64,000 nucleotides of DNA from Escherichia phage T4: sequence record NC_000866.4. The stretch is one strand, 5' to 3'. The translations under genes and the position numbers were made by a program. The notes beneath the pieces are model-generated. The model did not search any database. It saw nothing but the letters and a program-made list of their open reading frames with translations, and had not been told where the DNA came from. Every line of letters starts with the position of its first letter. Within the stretch, counting starts at the first letter, position 1. Below are positions 31,439 to 40,802 of this stretch, in pieces.

Positions 31439-33024
<1,586 letters not shown>

Positions 33025-33051
33025 AATAAAATGGGCCTTGCGGCCCACTCC

Positions 33052-33554
33052 TTAAAAGTATTTTTTAAAACTCATCATAACTTTATCATCAACATCATTA
33101 TCAATCTGTGCAACAAGGTAAGATGACAGTTCTACTTCTTGCGGCGCGGATTGAACATTATCAGAATTAAGATATTCACGAATCCAAGGATATGGATGTT
33201 TAACCGGAGCATCGGTAATTGGGCATGGAAGACCGCACTGTTTCATACGAGATACAGTTAAGTAATCAATAAAGCTCCACATGCTATTTGTATTTAATCC
33301 AGGAACATCACCATCTTTAAATAAATGAACTGCCCAGTCTTTTTCCTGGCGGTTAACTTCCATGAAAATATCAACTGCTTCTTGTTCACACTCTTGGGCA
33401 ATTTTAACCCATTCATCACCATCAGTACCGGATTGAAGTTGACGAATAATATATTGGGTGCCTTTAAGGTGAAGCTGTTCATCACGTGCAATGAACTTCA
33501 TAATCTTGGCATTACCTTCCATGATTTCCATGTTCTTATGGAAGTTAAAGGTAC
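33052..33554 (-). CDS. nrdB: Ribonucleotide reductase small subunit NrdB, exon 2
   Basis: C-terminal NrdB sequence (MEGNAKIMKFIARDEQLHL...); 3-prime splice site placed after intron-terminal G so the junction reads VSFA-C-TFNF. Confidence 0.85.
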
Positions 33555-34152
33555 CGTATGTTCGATTGAGCTCGCTAATTCTCAACCCGTTCTCTTATGA
33601 ACTGCTGCATGTTACCATGCAGTCCAGACTATATCACAATCCCGGAGGGATTCTCCCCATTTCGAGTCGCTTGACCCTACGTCCGAAGACTAGTCGTTGA
33701 ACCTTGTTTTGCAATTGTCGCCGTGCCATCGTTTATATGTTGATGGTGATAAATCTTTCTTATCACAATATGGACAATTCAATTGAATTCTATTTGGATT
33801 TAATTTACATCTGTCATTATGTTTTAGATAAAATCCAGGACCTTTACCAATGTGACCACAGAAATCACATGTGATTTCTTTTTGTGCAGGATGGGTCCCG
33901 TTCTTAACCATTTCTAATGTTTTTGCTGATGTTCTTTTCTTATGTTCTTCCATCAGAATCTTTAGGTATAGGTCCGTTAGCATCTATCCAAATTTTTCTA
34001 TAGTTCAATTGTGCATCCTCTTAAAAGTATAATCATATTTATATTATACTAATTAAAGGTGCAAGCAAAACCTTGGCTGCTAGTTTTCCATAAAGGACTT
34101 TCCAGCAATTAAAGGAGTTTTCGATAAACGTTACCGTTTAAAGGCGCATTTT
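33555..34152 (-). mobile_element. Group I self-splicing intron in nrdB (598 nt)
   Basis: in-frame stop immediately after exon 1; exon 1 ends in U and intron ends in G; core blocks shared with the td intron; contains an endonuclease-remnant ORF. Confidence 0.85.
33690..33983 (-). pseudogene. I-TevIII: Truncated intron endonuclease remnant (I-TevIII-like)
   Basis: 97-aa intron ORF with CxxC...CxxC zinc-finger-like motifs and no recognisable nuclease domain. Confidence 0.7.
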
Positions 34153-34816
34153 ACGCAAAAGATACATAAAAACGAATAGCTTCTAAGGCATTAATAACGT
34201 GCAAACAGAGGTAAAGAGATTTCATCAGATCTCGTTTAGCTCTTTGCTCAACGTCTTTATCAGCTAGAATTAGACCTTGGTCTTTATAATATTCAACCAT
34301 GTCTTTAGCATTTTCCCATTCACGGGTTTTAACCAAGACATCATCGTAATATCGCCCAATGGACTCAGCACGTTTCATAATAGCTTCATCTAATACAATC
34401 TCATCAAACACCTTCGATGGATCAGTATAAAGATTTCGCATGATATGAGTATATGAACGACTGTGAATAGTTTCACTAAAAGTCCATGTAGCAACCCATG
34501 TATCAAGGCTTGGGTCTGAAATTAATGACATAAGTACAGCAGATGGCGCACGACCCTGAATGCTATCCAAAAGTGATTGATACTTCAGGTTGTTAGTAAA
34601 AATATTTTGCTGATACTGAGGAAGCTTATTAAATTGCGCAGCATCCATCATTAAGTTTACTTCTTCAGGACGCCAAAAAAAACTGATCTGCCGCTCAATG
34701 AGTTCTTCAAATACTCGATGTCGTTGAATATCATATCGAGCTAAACCTAATCCAGAACCAAAGAACATCGGTTCATTCAAAACATCAACTGGATTTGTAT
34801 TAAAAACTGTACTCAT
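34153..34816 (-). CDS. nrdB: Ribonucleotide reductase small subunit NrdB, exon 1
   Basis: N-terminal 221 aa of NrdB, ATG verified; ends ...ALEAIRFYVSFA. Confidence 0.88.
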
Positions 34817-35064
34817 TTAGAATCCTTAAATTTACATTTATCATAATGCCATCTTAAAGCATTGCCTTTATTAACTTTCTTACCACAGTGCGGGCAAGGT
34901 GGATACTCTGCTCCTTGTTTAGTTCTCAAAGAAATCAAATCACGGGTTTCTTTAGTATGAGGAACATCTCTTGTCGGAGAAATTGTACCATACATCGGAT
35001 TAAGCACGCCGACTTTAGCAGCAGCTATATTCTTTTTAGCTTCTTCAGTTTTAGGCTTTCTCAT
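34813..35064 (-). CDS. small Zn-ribbon / NUMOD-like protein (nrdA.1-type position)
   Basis: 83-aa ORF with CPHCGKK and TKETRDLISLRTKQG motifs resembling homing-endonuclease DNA-binding modules. Confidence 0.5.
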   Translation of the reverse strand: MRKPKTEEAKKNIAAAKVGVLNPMYGTISPTRDVPHTKETRDLISLRTKQGAEYPPCPHCGKKVNKGNALRWHYDKCKFKDSK

Positions 35065-35087: not shown

Positions 35088-35513
35088 TTAGCCCTTCCTT
35101 TGGTTGCCGCCGATATTTTGTGTTTGGTTTCTTCTGTTAAACGCAGACCTGTTTTCGCTTTTTGACATTTTCAGTCTCGTTTCTTCAGAAATGACCGTAC
35201 CTTTGCGAAATTGCGAATTTAACTTCTTTGCATGGGCATATATTTTAGAATGAACTTTATAATGACGTTTCTTAGTTCCTTTCATATTGCACATCATGAA
35301 AAATGCGAATATAACAGATTTTACCGGATAAATCTTTGATAAAATAGCATGCGCTATAAAATGCTCTCTAGCTGTTAATTCAACTAAATTTTCTTTATCA
35401 TCAGAACCTCCCATGCATCTAGGGATTATATGATGTGTCTCTTTATATTCGGATAAAGGTTCCCGAGCCTGAGCTCGGGAAATTAGGTCGTTATAGATTT
35501 TTTGATAATTCAT
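35088..35513 (-). CDS. mobE: HNH homing endonuclease (MobE-like)
   Basis: 141-aa ORF with HNH motif HHIIPRCMGGSDDKENLVELTAREH; lies between nrdA and nrdB. Confidence 0.8.
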   Translation of the reverse strand: MNYQKIYNDLISRAQAREPLSEYKETHHIIPRCMGGSDDKENLVELTAREHFIAHAILSKIYPVKSVIFAFFMMCNMKGTKKRHYKVHSKIYAHAKKLNSQFRKGTVISEETRLKMSKSENRSAFNRRNQTQNIGGNQRKG

Positions 35514-37777
35514 TACAATTTACACGCTGCACAATCATCGGCTTTAGGAGTTTCTATTTCATAATCATCAGTACCAGAACCATCACGGGTATTATGATAA
35601 TAGAAATTTTTAATGCCATAATACCATCCGTATAGCATGTCATCAATCATTATTGACATTGGAACCTTTCCTTTTGGAAAAATCTGCGGGTCATAATATG
35701 TATTCGCTGAAGCTGATTGACATACCCATTTCAGCATAATAGCTACCTGCGTAAGATAAGGTTTATTACCTTTCTTAGCTAATTTCCATGTATAATCATA
35801 GAGGTCTATGTTATGCTCAATATTGGGCACGACTTGATTAAAGGAACCCTCTTTTGATTCTTTAACACTTACCGGTCCACGTGGAGGCTCGTAGCCGTTT
35901 GTACTGTTAGAAACTTGGGAAGATGACTCACATGGCATAAGTGCTGATAATGTGCTATTACGGATGCCAAATAGCTTAAGGTCTTCCCGCAGCGCCGACC
36001 AGTCACAAACGTATTTTGGAGCTGCGATTTGGTCAATCTTTTTATTGTACCAGTCGATAGGTAATTCGCCTCGAGACCAACGAGTGTCTGAATAATATTC
36101 CGAAGGTCCTTTTTCTTTGGCGAGCTTAATGGATGCTTTAATGAGTCCATACTGTAATCTCTCAAATAGTTCATGTGTTAAATCGTTAGCATCTTCATAA
36201 GAAGCAAAGTTACTTGCCAGCCAAGCTGCATAGTTGGTAACACCTACACCGAGGTTACGACGCTTTTTAGCTTTTTCTGCTTCAGGAACCGGATATCCTT
36301 GGTAATCCAACAGATTATCAAGAGCACGAACTTGAACTTCTGCCAATTCATTAATTTTATCTTGGTCTTGCCAGTCAAAATTATCTAATACGAATGCAGA
36401 GAGAGTACACAATCCAATTTCAGCATCAGGGCTATTCACATCATTTGTTGGAATAGCAATTTCACAGCACAAGTTACTCTGACGAATAGGTGCCTTTTCA
36501 CGAATAAACGGAGTATAGTTATTCGTATTATCAATGAACTGCACATAAATCCTTGCTGTTCCTGAACGTTCAGTCATGAGCAATTCAAATAGTTCACGGG
36601 CTTTAATACGCTTTTTACGAATATTAGGGTCTTTTTCTGCTGCTTCGTATAATTCACGGAAACGGTCTTGGTCTTTAAAATAAGAATAATAAAGCTCGCC
36701 ACCCATTTCATGCGGACTGAACAAAGTAATGTAATCGTTTTTTCCAAAACGTTCCATCATCAAATCATTCAGTTGAACACCATAATCCATATGACGAATG
36801 CGGTTTTCTTCTACGCCTTTGTTATTTTTCAAAACGAGAAGATTTTCAACTTCCAAATGCCAAATAGGATAATAAGCAGTAGCAGCGCCGCCACGAATTC
36901 CACCCTGTGAACATGATTTAACTGCAGTCTGAAAATGTTTCCAAAAAGGAATAACACCAGTATGGCGTACTTCACCCATGCCAATCTTAGAACCTTCGGC
37001 ACGAATCATACCAACGTTAATACCAATTCCAGCGCGTTTAGAGATATATTCAACAATTGAAGCAGAAGCCTTATTGATAGACTTCAATGAATCTCCTGCC
37101 TCAATAACAACACATGAACTAAACTGTCGAGTCGGAGTACGACAACCAGCCATAATAGGAGTTGGCAATGAAATCTGTCGAGTTGATACTGCTTCATAAA
37201 AACGGATAACATGTTTTAATCTATCAACAGGTTCATCTTGATGCAGTGCCATTCCAATAGTCATAAATGCAAACTGTGGAGTTTCATAAATTTGACCAGT
37301 GGTTTTATCTTTAACTAGATATTTTTCTTTTAATTGCATTGCCCCGGAATAAGTAAATTCCATATCCCGTTCGTGCTTAATTTTTGATTCTAAAAATGTA
37401 ATTTCTTCTGCTGAATATTTTGACAATAATTCAGGGTCGTATTTACCTGCATTTACACAATAAGAAATATGGTCAATAAATGAACGTGGTTCATACTGCC
37501 CATAAACATGCTTACGAAGAGCAAACATTAAACAGCGTGCAGCTACATATTGATAATCAGGTTCTTCAACCGAAATAGAATTCGCAGCAGCCTTAATGAC
37601 AATAGTCTGAATATCATCAGTTGTCATTCCATCACGGAGATAAGATTTAATATTTTCATATAATTCATAAGGATCTACTGATGTTCCTTCAGCTGCCCAA
37701 GATAAAACTTTAATAATTTTTTGTGGGTCAAAGCTCTGAGAAACACCACTACTTTTGATAACATTAATTAATTGCAT
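35513..37777 (-). CDS. nrdA: Ribonucleotide reductase large subunit NrdA
   Basis: 754-aa ORF with ATP-cone N-terminus and class I RNR catalytic motifs; C-terminal CAACKL tail. Confidence 0.95.
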   Translation of the reverse strand: MQLINVIKSSGVSQSFDPQKIIKVLSWAAEGTSVDPYELYENIKSYLRDGMTTDDIQTIVIKAAANSISVEEPDYQYVAARCLMFALRKHVYGQYEPRSFIDHISYCVNAGKYDPELLSKYSAEEITFLESKIKHERDMEFTYSGAMQLKEKYLVKDKTTGQIYETPQFAFMTIGMALHQDEPVDRLKHVIRFYEAVSTRQISLPTPIMAGCRTPTRQFSSCVVIEAGDSLKSINKASASIVEYISKRAGIGINVGMIRAEGSKIGMGEVRHTGVIPFWKHFQTAVKSCSQGGIRGGAATAYYPIWHLEVENLLVLKNNKGVEENRIRHMDYGVQLNDLMMERFGKNDYITLFSPHEMGGELYYSYFKDQDRFRELYEAAEKDPNIRKKRIKARELFELLMTERSGTARIYVQFIDNTNNYTPFIREKAPIRQSNLCCEIAIPTNDVNSPDAEIGLCTLSAFVLDNFDWQDQDKINELAEVQVRALDNLLDYQGYPVPEAEKAKKRRNLGVGVTNYAAWLASNFASYEDANDLTHELFERLQYGLIKASIKLAKEKGPSEYYSDTRWSRGELPIDWYNKKIDQIAAPKYVCDWSALREDLKLFGIRNSTLSALMPCESSSQVSNSTNGYEPPRGPVSVKESKEGSFNQVVPNIEHNIDLYDYTWKLAKKGNKPYLTQVAIMLKWVCQSASANTYYDPQIFPKGKVPMSIMIDDMLYGWYYGIKNFYYHNTRDGSGTDDYEIETPKADDCAACKL

Positions 37778-38094
37778 AAGTCCTCAACTTGAAAATCGTC
37801 TTTAAACAATCGGTTAACTATATGAGCTATTATATCACCATGACACGGCTTTGGTTTACATGTGCATCCTAGCCTCATTCCACGTAAAGGCTCTAAATGT
37901 GCTTTAGTTATTTCTCCGGATTTAATTCGACGTATAAAATCTTTTTTGAATAATTCAATGGCAGCCTCCCGGCTGCCAGCATCTTTACCGACGTAATTTC
38001 CCCAAAATGTACCGCGGTGAATATTAACATCAAAGTCGGATTTATATTTATTCACTACCCGGCATAGACGGCCCACGCTGGAATAATTCGTCAT
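37768..38094 (-). CDS. hypothetical Cys/His-containing protein
   Basis: 108-aa ORF, ATG verified; motif [11 protein letters not shown]. Confidence 0.55.
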
Positions 38095-38311
38095 ATTGTT
38101 TTTCCGTTAAAACAGTAATATCGTAGTAACAGTCAGAAGAAGTTTTAACTGTGGAAATTTTATTATCAAAATACTCACGAGTCATTTTATGAGTATAGTA
38201 TTTTTTACCATAAATGGTAATAGGCTGTTCTGGTCCTGGAACTTCTAACTCGCTTGGGTTAGGAAGTGTAAAAAGAACTACACCAGAAGTATCTTTAAAT
38301 CGTAAAATCAT
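38048..38311 (-). CDS. hypothetical protein
   Basis: 87 aa from ATG at 38311 with GAGGA ribosome-binding site; track ORF begins at upstream TTG. Confidence 0.55.
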
Positions 38312-38331
38312 ATATCCTCGCAATAATAAAA

Positions 38332-38643
38332 TTACACCGCCATCTTTCCTTTAATAGGAGGGTGTGATACATAGTTGTTAAGAACGAAATCTTTAGGCCT
38401 AAGTTTAAGAACATATTTTAATTGTTCTTTAGTAGAAAGATATCGGAATTTATAAGGTAGACCACTTATTACCAGCTCACAAAGCTCTTTAGGTTCACGC
38501 CTCAAAATTTCTTTACATTGTTCTACGTGATTCATATAGATATGAGTATTACCACCAGAAAATATCAAATCCCCTGGAATAAGATTACACATCTTAGCTA
38601 CAATATGAACTAACGTAGCATATGACGCAATATTAAACGGTAG
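38332..38643 (-). CDS. td: Thymidylate synthase, exon 2
   Basis: C-terminal thymidylate synthase sequence [11 protein letters not shown]...; the ATG at 38644-38646 is the last 3 nt of the intron. Confidence 0.9.
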
Positions 38644-39660
38644 CATTATGTTCAGATAAGGTCGTTAATCTTACCCCGGAATTATATCCAGCTGCATGTC
38701 ACCATGCAGAGCAGACTATATCTCCAACTTGTTAAAGCAAGTTGTCTATCGTTTCGAGTCACTTGACCCTACTCCCCAAAGGGATAGTCGTTAGGCATTT
38801 ATGTAGAACCAATTCCATTTATCAGATTTTACACGATAAGTAACTAATCCAGACGAAATTTTAAAATGTCTAGCTGCATCTGCTGCACAATCAAAAATAA
38901 CCCCATCACATGAAATCTTTTTAATATTACTAGGCTTTTTACCTTTCATCTTTTCTGATATTTTAGATTTAGTTATGTCTGAATGCTTATGATTAAAGAA
39001 TGAATTATTTTCACCTGAACGATTTCTGCATTTACTACAAGTATAAGCAGAAGTTTGTATGCGAACACCGCACTTACAAAACTTATGGGTTTCTGGATTC
39101 CAACGCCCGTTTTTACTTCCGGGTTTACTGTAAAGAGCTTTCCGACCATCAGGTCCAAGTTTAAGCATCTTAGCTTTAACAGTTTCAGAACGTTTCTTAA
39201 TAATTTCTTCTTTTAATGGATGCGTAGAACATGTATCACCAAACGTTGCATCAGCAATATTGTATCCATTAATTTTAGAATTAAGCTCTTTAATCCAAAA
39301 ATTTTCTCGTTCAATAATCAAATCTTTCTCATATGGAATTTCTTCCAAAATAGAACATTCAAACACATTACCATGTTTGTTAAAAGACCTCTGAAGTTTT
39401 ATAGAAGAATGGCATCCTTTTTCTAAATCTTTAAAATGCCTCTTCCATCTCTTTTCAAAATCTTTAGCACTTCCTACATATACTTTATTGTTTAAAGTAT
39501 TTTTAATCTGATAAATTCCGCTTTTCATAAATACCTCTTTAAATATAGAAGTATTTATTAAAGGGCAAGTCCTACAATTTAGCACGGGATTGTCTACTAG
39601 AGAGGTTCCCCGTTTAGATAGATTACAAGTATAAGTCACCTTATACTCAGGCCTCAATTA
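38644..39660 (-). mobile_element. Group I self-splicing intron in td (about 1.0 kb) carrying I-TevI
   Basis: intron begins UAAUUGAGGCCUGAGUAUAAGGUGACUUAUACUUG right after exon 1 and ends ...AACAUAAUG before exon 2. Confidence 0.92.
38791..39528 (-). CDS. I-TevI: Intron-encoded GIY-YIG homing endonuclease I-TevI
   Basis: 245 aa from ATG at 39528, N-terminus MKSGIYQIKNTLNNKVYVGSAKDFEKRWKRH; track ORF extended 43 codons upstream into intron sequence. Confidence 0.93.
   Translation of the reverse strand: MKSGIYQIKNTLNNKVYVGSAKDFEKRWKRHFKDLEKGCHSSIKLQRSFNKHGNVFECSILEEIPYEKDLIIERENFWIKELNSKINGYNIADATFGDTCSTHPLKEEIIKKRSETVKAKMLKLGPDGRKALYSKPGSKNGRWNPETHKFCKCGVRIQTSAYTCSKCRNRSGENNSFFNHKHSDITKSKISEKMKGKKPSNIKKISCDGVIFDCAADAARHFKISSGLVTYRVKSDKWNWFYINA

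Positions 39661-40802
<1,142 letters not shown>

What the first reader, a model, noticed from the sequence alone, without database searches (positions are those of the whole stretch)
38644..39660. Group I intron in thymidylate synthase gene carrying I-TevI
The td reading frame stops immediately after ...DVFLG and resumes at [11 protein letters not shown] about 1.0 kb downstream. The intervening sequence starts UAAUUGAGGCC and ends ...AUAAUG, and contains a 245-aa GIY-YIG ORF. The supplied ORF track misreports the endonuclease as 288 aa because it extends into upstream intron sequence.
Basis: partly seen in the sequence, partly recalled or inferred. Interest (0 to 1): 0.45.

Follow-up and report, generated by a model that had tools for sequence, protein, structure and literature searches.

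The report
Phage T4 td intron with I-TevI

Summary
The observation and the interpretation both hold. On the minus strand, td exon 1 (40209..39661) ends in ...DVFLG and runs straight into a TAA stop. The intron is 39660..38644 (1017 nt, UAAUUGAGGCC...AUAAUG). Exon 2 (38643..38332) resumes at [11 protein letters not shown].

- **Identity:** the region is 99.8% identical to phage T4 records that annotate td, I-TevI and frd.
- **Splice junction:** the joined exons give a 286-aa protein identical to the crystallised T4 thymidylate synthase (PDB 1TIS).
- **Endonuclease:** the 245-aa ORF (39528..38791) is identical to the solved wild-type DNA-binding domain of I-TevI (1I3J) and matches the engineered catalytic-domain mutants 1MK0 and 1LN0. 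It has GIY-YIG, zinc-finger and DNA-binding domains.
- **The 288-aa ORF:** this is a mechanical artefact.
- **Rfam caveat:** No Rfam hit reaches the gathering score in the window, because the 759-nt ORF-bearing P6a loop splits the core. Eight natural ORF-less td introns at the same site score 63.8-77.1 bits against a cut-off of 50. One of them differs from the T4 core at 3 of 262 positions.
- **Structure:** a hand-drawn P1-P9.2 structure is 99.5% paired across 8 homologues.
- **Only oddity:** one extra T at 39567/39568 makes the intron 1017 nt, against 1016 nt in the T4 records compared base by base.

Verdict: already known, low interest.

The parts
39661..40209 (-). td (thymidylate synthase) exon 1, 183 codons, ending ...DVFLG. 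Its ATG overlaps the frd stop codon (ATGA).
   Evidence: ORF list, sequence, T4T annotation. With exon 2 it is 286/286 identical to PDB 1TIS.
38644..39660 (-). td group I intron (subgroup IA type with P7.1/P7.2), 1017 nt in this sequence version. It starts UAAUUGAGGCC and ends AUAAUG with the terminal G at 38644.
   Evidence: Structure. RF00028 partial hits. Homologues pass the gathering score.
39569..39660 (-). 5' half of the ribozyme core. It holds the internal guide GCCUGA (39652..39647), which pairs with exon UUGGGU to form P1. It also holds P2 (39646..39629), the P3 5' strand (39622..39617), P4-P5 (39612..39585), and the P6/P6a 5' strands (39583..39569).
   Evidence: Coordinates; pairings. 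RF00028 model positions 1-133 align here at 15.8 bits.
39518..39568 (-). I-TevI control region inside the P6a loop. It holds a late-promoter-like AATAAATA (39559..39552) and a 12-bp hairpin (39558..39547 with 39538..39527). The hairpin buries the Shine-Dalgarno GAGG (39537..39534) and the AU of the start codon. The extra T relative to other T4 records is at 39567/39568.
   Evidence: Fold: -16.4 kcal/mol, z = -3.87, 0 of 200 shuffles fold as well. Mechanism from PMC2988022. Extra T.
38791..39528 (-). I-TevI homing endonuclease gene, 245 aa. The GIY-YIG catalytic domain carries G4-I5-Y6, Y17-V18-G19, R27, E75 and N90. A linker with a Cys4 zinc finger (C151, C153, C164, C167) and a C-terminal DNA-binding domain follow.
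   Evidence: Pfam. PDB 1I3J, residues 130-245, identical; 1MK0 and 1LN0, residues 1-97, are engineered mutants. Residues checked. T4T annotation.
38644..38809 (-). 3' half of the ribozyme core: P6a/P6 3' strands (38809..38794, inside the last codons of I-TevI), P7 5' strand, P7.1, P7.2, P3 3' strand, P8, P7 3' strand (UAGUC within 38718..38712), P9, P9.1, P9.2 and the terminal G.
   Evidence: Coordinates; pairings. RF00028 model positions 123-253 align here at 26.4 bits, E 3.3e-5.
38332..38643 (-). td exon 2, 103 codons plus stop, starting [11 protein letters not shown].
39683..39687 (-). CAACG, a CNNNG motif at -27..-23 from the intron insertion site. In an intron-less allele this is where I-TevI cuts (23 and 25 nt upstream of the insertion site).
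   Evidence: Motif position. Cleavage distance from PMC2988022. CNNNG preference from the PMC12663268 abstract.

Best explanation
This is the phage T4 td gene, interrupted by its mobile, self-splicing group I intron.

1. **Transcription and translation before splicing.** The gene is transcribed as one pre-mRNA. A ribosome reading unspliced RNA stops at the UAA formed by the first three intron bases.
2. **Folding.** The intron RNA folds into the group I core. Exon UUGGGU pairs with the internal guide GCCUGA to form P1, placing a U.G wobble at the splice site. P3-P9 with the P3/P7 pseudoknot form the catalytic centre, and P7.1/P7.2 mark the IA subgroup.
3. **Splicing.** A free guanosine attacks the 5' splice site. 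The freed exon-1 3'-OH then attacks after the terminal G (38644). This joins 39661 to 38643 and produces the 286-aa thymidylate synthase.
4. **The endonuclease gene.** The P6a helix closes a 759-nt loop that holds the I-TevI gene and its controls. The last codons of the ORF supply the 3' strands of P6a and P6.
5. **Homing.** I-TevI is a monomeric GIY-YIG endonuclease. It binds the exon junction of intron-less td alleles and cuts 23/25 nt upstream at CAACG. Double-strand-break repair then copies the intron into the cut allele.
[quoted passage not shown] A late promoter inside the 5' arm of the hairpin gives transcripts that cannot form it. I-TevI also represses that promoter.

**Shown here:** sequence identity with T4, the exact boundaries, the identity of the spliced protein and of I-TevI with solved structures, the base-paired core, the hairpin, and the intron-less and ORF-less alleles in relatives.

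**Taken from the literature, not testable here:** splicing chemistry, cleavage, homing and autorepression.
For: - **T4 identity.** The region is 99.8% identical over 1951 nt to T4 records whose annotation lists frd, td (two-piece join), I-TevI and nrdA.2.
- **Splice junction.** The spliced exons are 286/286 identical to PDB 1TIS in a single alignment across the junction. They match Pfam Thymidylat_synt over profile positions 1-266 of 266.
- **I-TevI.** Residues 130-245 are identical to PDB 1I3J. Residues 1-97 match 1MK0 except for its engineered E75A change. Pfam finds three I-TevI/GIY-YIG domains, and the catalytic residues are in place.
- **Core structure.** All 76 pairs of the hand-drawn P1-P9.2 structure are standard pairs in T4. 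Across 8 td introns 99.5% of cells pair, against 29-45% when partners are slid by 1-3 columns. Both-sided changes occur in P8 and P9.2, and whole-hairpin replacements occur in P6a.
- **Thermodynamic fold.** The minimum-free-energy fold of the ORF-deleted intron recovers 59 of 71 nested pairs.
- **Rfam on the window.** The two halves of the window's intron align to the two halves of RF00028 at 15.8 and 26.4 bits.
- **Rfam on homologues.** Eight natural ORF-less td introns at the identical insertion site score 63.8-77.1 bits against a gathering score of 50. One of them, 215Ecol030PP, differs from the T4 core at 3 of 262 positions and scores 65.5 bits.
- **Intron-less alleles.** T2 and many other T-even phages are contiguous across the junction.
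- **Hairpin.** It sequesters the ribosome-binding site at -16.4 kcal/mol with z = -3.9.
- **Mechanism.** Described in PMC2988022.
Against: - RF00028 does not reach its gathering score on the window itself: no hit at the gathering score, and the best hit is 40.3 bits against 50. The 759-nt insertion in the P6a loop explains this.
- Most core pairs are invariant among the available homologues. Covariation support is therefore thin: 3 pairs with both-sided change.
- The minimum-free-energy fold did not recover P1 or P9.2.
- The similarity between the I-TevI operator and the homing site is 13/20 in this sequence and 14/20 in T4T. Shuffles give a mean of 12.1 and a maximum of 15, so it is no better than chance by sequence alone. 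That step rests only on published experiments.
- No RNA data are available here.
Confidence: 0.98

Rival explanations
1. The td gene is split by a free-standing homing endonuclease gene and there is no splicing. Two polypeptides of 183 and 104 aa would assemble into the enzyme, as in the mobE-split nrdA of phage Aeh1 or the split T4 genes 39/60.
For: Several public annotations of related phages list two separate 'thymidylate synthase' CDSs. An ATG at 38646-38644 would allow an independent 104-aa ORF.
Against: - The flanks of the endonuclease gene form a complete group I core.
- Homologues pass RF00028.
- The ATG at 38646 is the AUG of the AUAAUG intron end and has no exon function.
- The crystallised T4 enzyme is one 286-aa chain identical to the spliced product.
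- The two-CDS annotations are pipeline artefacts.
Confidence: 0.01
2. The insert is an intein or another protein-level insertion, removed after translation.
For: In this sequence version exon 1, the upstream intron and I-TevI happen to lie in one reading frame, separated only by the TAA at 39660-39658.
Against: - There is a stop codon exactly at the boundary.
- The I-TevI ORF stops 147 nt before exon 2.
- Pfam finds no Hint/intein domain.
- The shared frame is caused by the single extra T that is absent from other T4 records.
Confidence: 0.001
3. The insert is a group II intron or some other class of intervening sequence.
For: A 12.5-bit match to group-II-D1D4-5 with E = 8.3 lies inside the ORF.
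Against: - That match is at chance level.
- There is no reverse transcriptase or maturase; the only ORF is a GIY-YIG endonuclease.
- The group I core is present.
Confidence: 0.001
4. The intron in this particular sequence is a non-functional variant. The extra T at 39567/39568 would impair splicing or I-TevI regulation.
For: No record in the phage collection matches 39530-39610 over its full length without a difference. The eight best rows shown are 98.8% identical and span 80 nt of the record for the 81-nt query. The T lies immediately 3' of the P6a 5' strand and inside the published operator region.
Against: - The T is the first unpaired base of a 759-nt loop. In nature that loop tolerates deletion of everything, and replacement of the P6a hairpin as well.
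- All paired core positions are identical to T4T.
- A single-base run-length difference (T versus TT) is a typical sequencing discrepancy.
Confidence: 0.01

Closest known systems
Bacteriophage T4 td group I intron with I-TevI (records HM137666, M12742; reviewed in PMC2988022)
   Same: It is the same element. The host gene, insertion site, core sequence and 245-aa I-TevI protein are all identical, with the same neighbours frd and nrdA.2.
   Different: There is one extra T in the P6a loop (39567/39568), giving 1017 nt against 1016. There is an AT/TA swap in exon 1 (40117-40116) that makes Td residue 32 Ser instead of Thr; PDB 1TIS also has Ser.
Natural ORF-less td introns of other T4-like phages (GRNsp7, N2, SEA1, 215Ecol030PP, BYEP01, SYGD1, Shinka, Klebsiella phage EI)
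   Same: They have the same insertion site and the same 5' and 3' ends (TAATT...ATAATG). The core is 85-99% identical, and all pass RF00028.
   Different: They are 250-320 nt long and have no intact endonuclease gene. P6a is capped by a tetraloop, replaced by a different short hairpin (CAGC/GCUG, GUUC/GAAC), or retains I-TevI remnants.
T4 nrdB intron with the I-TevIII remnant (in this window at about 33.6-34.15 kb) and T4 nrdD (sunY) intron with I-TevII
   Same: Both are group I introns of the same phage in nucleotide-metabolism genes, with an endonuclease ORF looped out of the core. The nrdB intron shares the core motif GATATAGTC. The literature describes hairpin and late-promoter control for both (PMC2988022).
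   Different: The host genes differ. I-TevIII is an HNH enzyme truncated in T4, and the nrdB intron is not mobile on its own (PMC1865063 abstract). The nrdD intron did not turn up in this window.
I-BmoI, a GIY-YIG endonuclease of the Bacillus mojavensis thyA group I intron
   Same: It is a GIY-YIG homing endonuclease encoded in a group I intron of a thymidylate synthase gene. This rests on my own knowledge; related papers PMC2853131 and PMC3664794 were listed but not read.
   Different: The host and the intron are different. No comparison was made here.

Membership tests
Group I intron (Rfam RF00028) | P1 helix between the end of the 5' exon and an internal guide sequence, with a U.G wobble at the 5' splice site | tested here: met
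   Exon UUGGGU pairs with intron GCCUGA (39652..39647). The splice-site U.G is present in 8 of 8 homologues. P1 changes elsewhere keep pairing: UA/UG, UG/UA, GU/AU.
Group I intron (Rfam RF00028) | Terminal guanosine immediately before the 3' splice site | tested here: met
   The intron ends ...CAUAAUG with G at 38644. This is conserved in all 9 homologous introns.
Group I intron (Rfam RF00028) | Conserved catalytic core P3-P9 with the P3/P7 pseudoknot | tested here: met
   All pairs of P3, P4, P5, P6, P7, P8 and P9 are standard in T4. Across 8 sequences 99.5% of cells pair, against 29-45% for slid partners.
Group I intron (Rfam RF00028) | Score at or above the family's gathering score (50 bits) on the sequence itself | tested here: not met
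   - Window itself: no hit at the gathering score. The best hit is 40.3 bits with its 5' half misaligned into the ORF. The halves scanned separately give 15.8 and 26.4 bits.
- Cause: the 759-nt loop in P6a.
- Homologues: eight ORF-less introns score 63.8-77.1 bits. One that differs from the T4 core at 3 of 262 positions scores 65.5 bits.
- Limit: a custom ORF-deleted T4 sequence could not be given to cmscan.
Group I intron (Rfam RF00028) | Removal restores an uninterrupted, functional host reading frame | tested here: met
   The spliced product is 286/286 identical to PDB 1TIS and covers the full Pfam profile. Intron-less alleles in T2 and others are contiguous at exactly this point.
Group I intron (Rfam RF00028) | Guanosine-initiated self-splicing in vitro | not testable with these tools
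   Established for the T4 td intron in the literature (PMC2988022).
Subgroup IA group I introns | Extra helices P7.1 and P7.2 between the P7 5' strand and the P3 3' strand | tested here: met
   UCCC/GGGA (38784..38773) and GGGUC/GACUC (38769..38756). Both are 100% paired in 8 sequences and both are recovered by the minimum-free-energy fold. The T4T record calls it a group IA intron.
GIY-YIG homing endonucleases (I-TevI) | N-terminal GIY-YIG catalytic domain with the conserved Arg, Glu and Asn | tested here: met
   Pfam PF01541 at 66.8 bits against a cut-off of 22.6. GIY at residues 4-6, YVG at 17-19, and R27, E75, N90 are present. Residues 1-97 match PDB 1MK0, an E75A mutant.
GIY-YIG homing endonucleases (I-TevI) | Linker with zinc finger plus C-terminal DNA-binding domain | tested here: met
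   PF22635 at 73.4 bits and PF20987 at 110.5 bits. Residues 130-245 are identical to PDB 1I3J.
GIY-YIG homing endonucleases (I-TevI) | Cleaves the intron-less allele near the insertion site and promotes homing | not testable with these tools
   The sequence shows CAACG at -27..-23. Intron-less alleles exist in relatives. Cleavage at 23/25 nt upstream is from PMC2988022.
Intein | In-frame insertion with a Hint splicing domain and no stop codons | tested here: not met
   There is a TAA at the boundary and the ORF stops 147 nt before exon 2. No Hint domain was found.
Group II intron | Domains I-VI RNA structure, usually with a reverse transcriptase/maturase ORF | tested here: not met
   Only a chance-level 12.5-bit match with E = 8.3. 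The ORF is a GIY-YIG endonuclease.

The most novel reading that the evidence does not exclude
The single extra T at 39567/39568 might be a real polymorphism of this T4 stock rather than a sequencing discrepancy. It lies just 3' of the P6a 5' strand, inside the region published as the I-TevI operator. No full-length match among the records shown carries it. If real, it shifts the register of the operator relative to the late promoter. That could alter I-TevI autorepression or the timing of its expression.
Probability: 0.08. Interest if true: 0.1.

Novelty: already known. Interest (0 to 1): 0.04.

Why it matters
The element matters historically. [quoted passage not shown] Finding it again in a T4 sequence adds nothing new.

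The practical lesson is for scanning pipelines:
- The standard Rfam gathering-score scan misses both ORF-carrying group I introns in this window.
- Mechanical ORF callers mis-size I-TevI.
- Many public annotations of T4-like phages list td as two genes.

Tried and rejected
- **Rfam at the gathering score on the whole window:** 0 hits. At E <= 0.01 the only hit was td, at 40.3 bits. The 5' half of that alignment falls inside the I-TevI ORF and is spurious. I therefore scanned the halves separately and then natural ORF-less homologues.
- **Custom sequence to cmscan:** I could not give cmscan an ORF-deleted T4 sequence, so I used 215Ecol030PP as a proxy. It differs from the T4 core at 3 of 262 positions.
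- **Sigma-70 promoter and terminator scan:** 6 promoter-like sites against 10.8 expected. It is uninformative for T4 middle and late promoters. The one 'terminator' is P8 read on the wrong strand.
- **Operator versus homing-site similarity:** 13-14 of 20 positions, against a shuffled mean of 12.1 and maximum of 15. It is not significant by sequence alone, so autorepression is cited from the literature only.
- **Minimum-free-energy folding:** it did not recover P1 or P9.2, and it cannot show the P7 pseudoknot.
- **MAFFT alignment of intron-less T2 against intron-containing sequences:** it misplaced T2. I checked the junction by direct string comparison instead.
- **Alternative classes:** intein, group II intron and split-gene readings were considered and rejected (see the rival explanations).

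Full report
**What is in the sequence.** All features lie on the minus strand.
- An ORF runs from ATG 40209 to 39661 and ends ...[10 protein letters not shown]. The next codon is TAA at 39660-39658. Its ATG overlaps the stop codon of the upstream dihydrofolate reductase gene (40787..40206; Pfam DHFR_1).
- The reading frame resumes at 38643 with [11 protein letters not shown] and ends at 38332.
- The 1017 nt in between (39660..38644) start TAATTGAGGCC and end CATAATG.
- They contain a 245-codon ORF, ATG 39528 to TAA 38793-38791.
- The mechanical ORF list reports 288 aa from a TTG at 39657.

**Identity.**
- The region 38300-40250 is 99.8% identical over its full length to phage T4 records. These records annotate frd, a two-piece td CDS, I-TevI ('DNA endonuclease encoded by group 1A intron in td; GIY-YIG family') and nrdA.2.
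- There are only three differences from T4T (HM137666) and from the 1986 record M12742. One is an AT/TA swap at 40117-40116, which makes Td residue 32 Ser instead of Thr. The other is one extra T at 39567/39568.
- No record in the phage collection matches 39530-39610 over its full length without a difference. The eight best rows shown are 98.8% identical and span 80 nt of the record. The intron is therefore 1017 nt here and 1016 nt in T4T and M12742.
- The extra T is also the reason the 288-aa ORF exists. Without it the frame upstream of the ATG holds four stop codons.

**Proteins.**
- Joining 39661 to 38643 gives a 286-aa protein. It covers the whole Pfam thymidylate synthase profile (E 3.5e-95) and is identical at 286 of 286 positions to the crystallised T4 enzyme, PDB 1TIS, in one alignment across the junction. 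This is direct protein-level confirmation of the exon junction.
- The 245-aa ORF has GIY-YIG, I-TevI zinc-finger and I-TevI DNA-binding domains.
- Its residues 130-245 are identical to PDB 1I3J. Its residues 1-97 match 1MK0 apart from that entry's engineered E75A change.
- GIY (4-6), YVG (17-19), R27, E75, N90 and the four zinc-finger cysteines are all present.
- The solved chains begin at MKSGIYQ, which supports ATG 39528 as the true start.

**The ribozyme.**
- Rfam finds nothing at its gathering score anywhere in the window.
- With relaxed thresholds RF00028 scores 40.3 bits against a cut-off of 50 on 38692-38922. The 5' half of that alignment lies inside the I-TevI ORF and is wrong.
- Scanned separately, the true 5' segment aligns to model positions 1-133 at 15.8 bits, and the 3' segment aligns to positions 123-253 at 26.4 bits, E 3.3e-5. 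The model cannot bridge the 759-nt loop of P6a.
- A search with the two core halves joined found 38 phage records where one place covers at least 80% of the joined core. These records hold shortened introns.
- I fetched nine of them, all inserted at exactly the same td position with the same ends. Eight are 250-320 nt. The ninth, vB_EcoM_F1, is 446 nt.
- Those eight score 63.8-77.1 bits on RF00028. The 446-nt F1 intron, which still holds about 190 nt of I-TevI sequence in the loop, gave no hit at the gathering score.
- One of the eight, 215Ecol030PP, differs from the T4 core at only 3 of 262 positions and scores 65.5 bits.

**Hand-drawn structure.**
- I drew P1, P2, P3, P4, P5, P6, P6a, P7 (pseudoknotted with P3), P7.1, P7.2, P8, P9, P9.1 and P9.2 on the T4 sequence. 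All 76 pairs are standard pairs.
- On an alignment of eight td introns 99.5% of cells pair, against 29-45% when the 3' partners are slid by 1-3 columns.
- Both-sided changes occur in P8 (A-U to U-A in four sequences) and in P9.2.
- P1 changes keep pairing, and the splice-site U.G is invariant.
- P6a is replaced wholesale by different short hairpins in different phages: UGUAGGAC/GUUCUACA, CAGC/GCUG and GUUC/GAAC.
- A plain minimum-free-energy fold of the ORF-deleted intron recovers 59 of the 71 nested pairs. It misses only P1 and P9.2.
- Most core pairs never vary, so covariation evidence is limited. Together with the Rfam scores of the homologues, the group I assignment is nevertheless secure.

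**Layout inside the intron.**
- The 5' core occupies 39660..39569 and the 3' core occupies 38809..38644.
- The 3' strands of P6a and P6 lie inside the last codons of I-TevI (38809..38794). [quoted passage not shown]
- A 12-bp hairpin lies just upstream of the ORF (39558..39547 with 39538..39527; -16.4 kcal/mol, z = -3.87). It buries the Shine-Dalgarno GAGG and part of the AUG.
- A late-promoter-like AATAAATA lies in the hairpin's 5' arm.
- This is the published arrangement. Early and middle read-through transcripts form the hairpin and are not translated. Late transcripts start inside the hairpin and are translated (PMC2988022).
- The published operator similarity to the homing site cannot be distinguished from chance by sequence alone, so I cite it only from the literature.

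**Mobility.**
- Many related phages, including T2, have an uninterrupted td gene that is contiguous at exactly the insertion point.
- In exon 1 the motif CAACG lies at -27..-23 from the insertion site. [quoted passage not shown]
- Related phages show every state: intron-less alleles, introns with the ORF, introns with a decayed ORF, and ORF-less introns. This is the pattern expected for a homing element.

**Rival readings.**
- A split gene with no splicing is contradicted by the complete ribozyme core and by the single-chain crystal structure.
- An intein is excluded by the stop codons and the absence of a Hint domain.
- A group II intron is excluded by the absence of any significant match and of a reverse transcriptase.

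**Verdict.** The finding is real and correctly interpreted, and it is the classical T4 td intron with I-TevI. It is already known in full molecular detail, so interest is low.

Noticed in passing
window 33586-34150 (-), approximate: This is a second group I intron, the T4 nrdB intron. It lies between nrdB exon 1 (ORF 34816..34151) and exon 2 (within 33585..33052), and it carries a 97-aa I-TevIII remnant (33983..33690). It shares the core motif GATATAGTC (33635..33627). RF00028 scores only 35.7 bits, below the gathering score, and the whole-window scans missed it.
   Followed up: partly
window 39567-39568 and 40116-40117: The window differs from the T4 records compared base by base (T4T and M12742) in two ways. 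One is an extra T in the P6a loop, giving an intron of 1017 nt against 1016. The other is an AT/TA swap that makes Td residue 32 Ser instead of Thr. PDB 1TIS has Ser, like the window. These are probably old sequencing discrepancies. The extra T creates the 288-aa ORF artefact and puts exon 1 and I-TevI in one frame.
   Followed up: partly
loci L003-L006 and L008-L012 (td introns of other phages): At least six different shortened forms of the td intron exist in recently sequenced T4-like phages.
- Loop reduced to UUUG: 262-263 nt.
- P6a replaced by CAGC/GCUG: 254 nt.
- P6a replaced by GUUC/GAAC: 250-254 nt.
- ORF remnants: 315, 320 and 446 nt.

The 315-nt form in Klebsiella phage EI looks like a deletion between two GGAAT repeats. 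Many of these genomes are annotated with two separate thymidylate synthase genes.
   Followed up: partly
window 35088-35513 (-) and 34813-35064 (-): Two small ORFs lie between nrdA and nrdB. One is 141 aa with an HNH motif and corresponds to mobE, which PMC2988022 places between nrdB and nrdA. The other is 83 aa with a NUMOD3 motif and a Cys-rich tail that resembles the I-TevIII remnant.
   Followed up: partly
window 32614-33048 (-): An ORF downstream of nrdB carries a GIY-YIG domain (Pfam, E 1.7e-6). From my own knowledge of the T4 map, its position fits denA (endonuclease II).
   Followed up: no
window 37768-38323 (-): Two small conserved ORFs lie between td and nrdA, with overlapping ends. 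They are DUF5496 (nrdA.2, 87 aa) and DUF4326 (nrdA.1, 108 aa). Their function is unknown.
   Followed up: no
locus L003 (Klebsiella phage EI, MN106245): The depositor's note reads 'dTMP synthase, with intron of plasmid pMTL007C-E2'. I think a similarity search hit a cloning vector that carries the td intron, but I did not check this.
   Followed up: no
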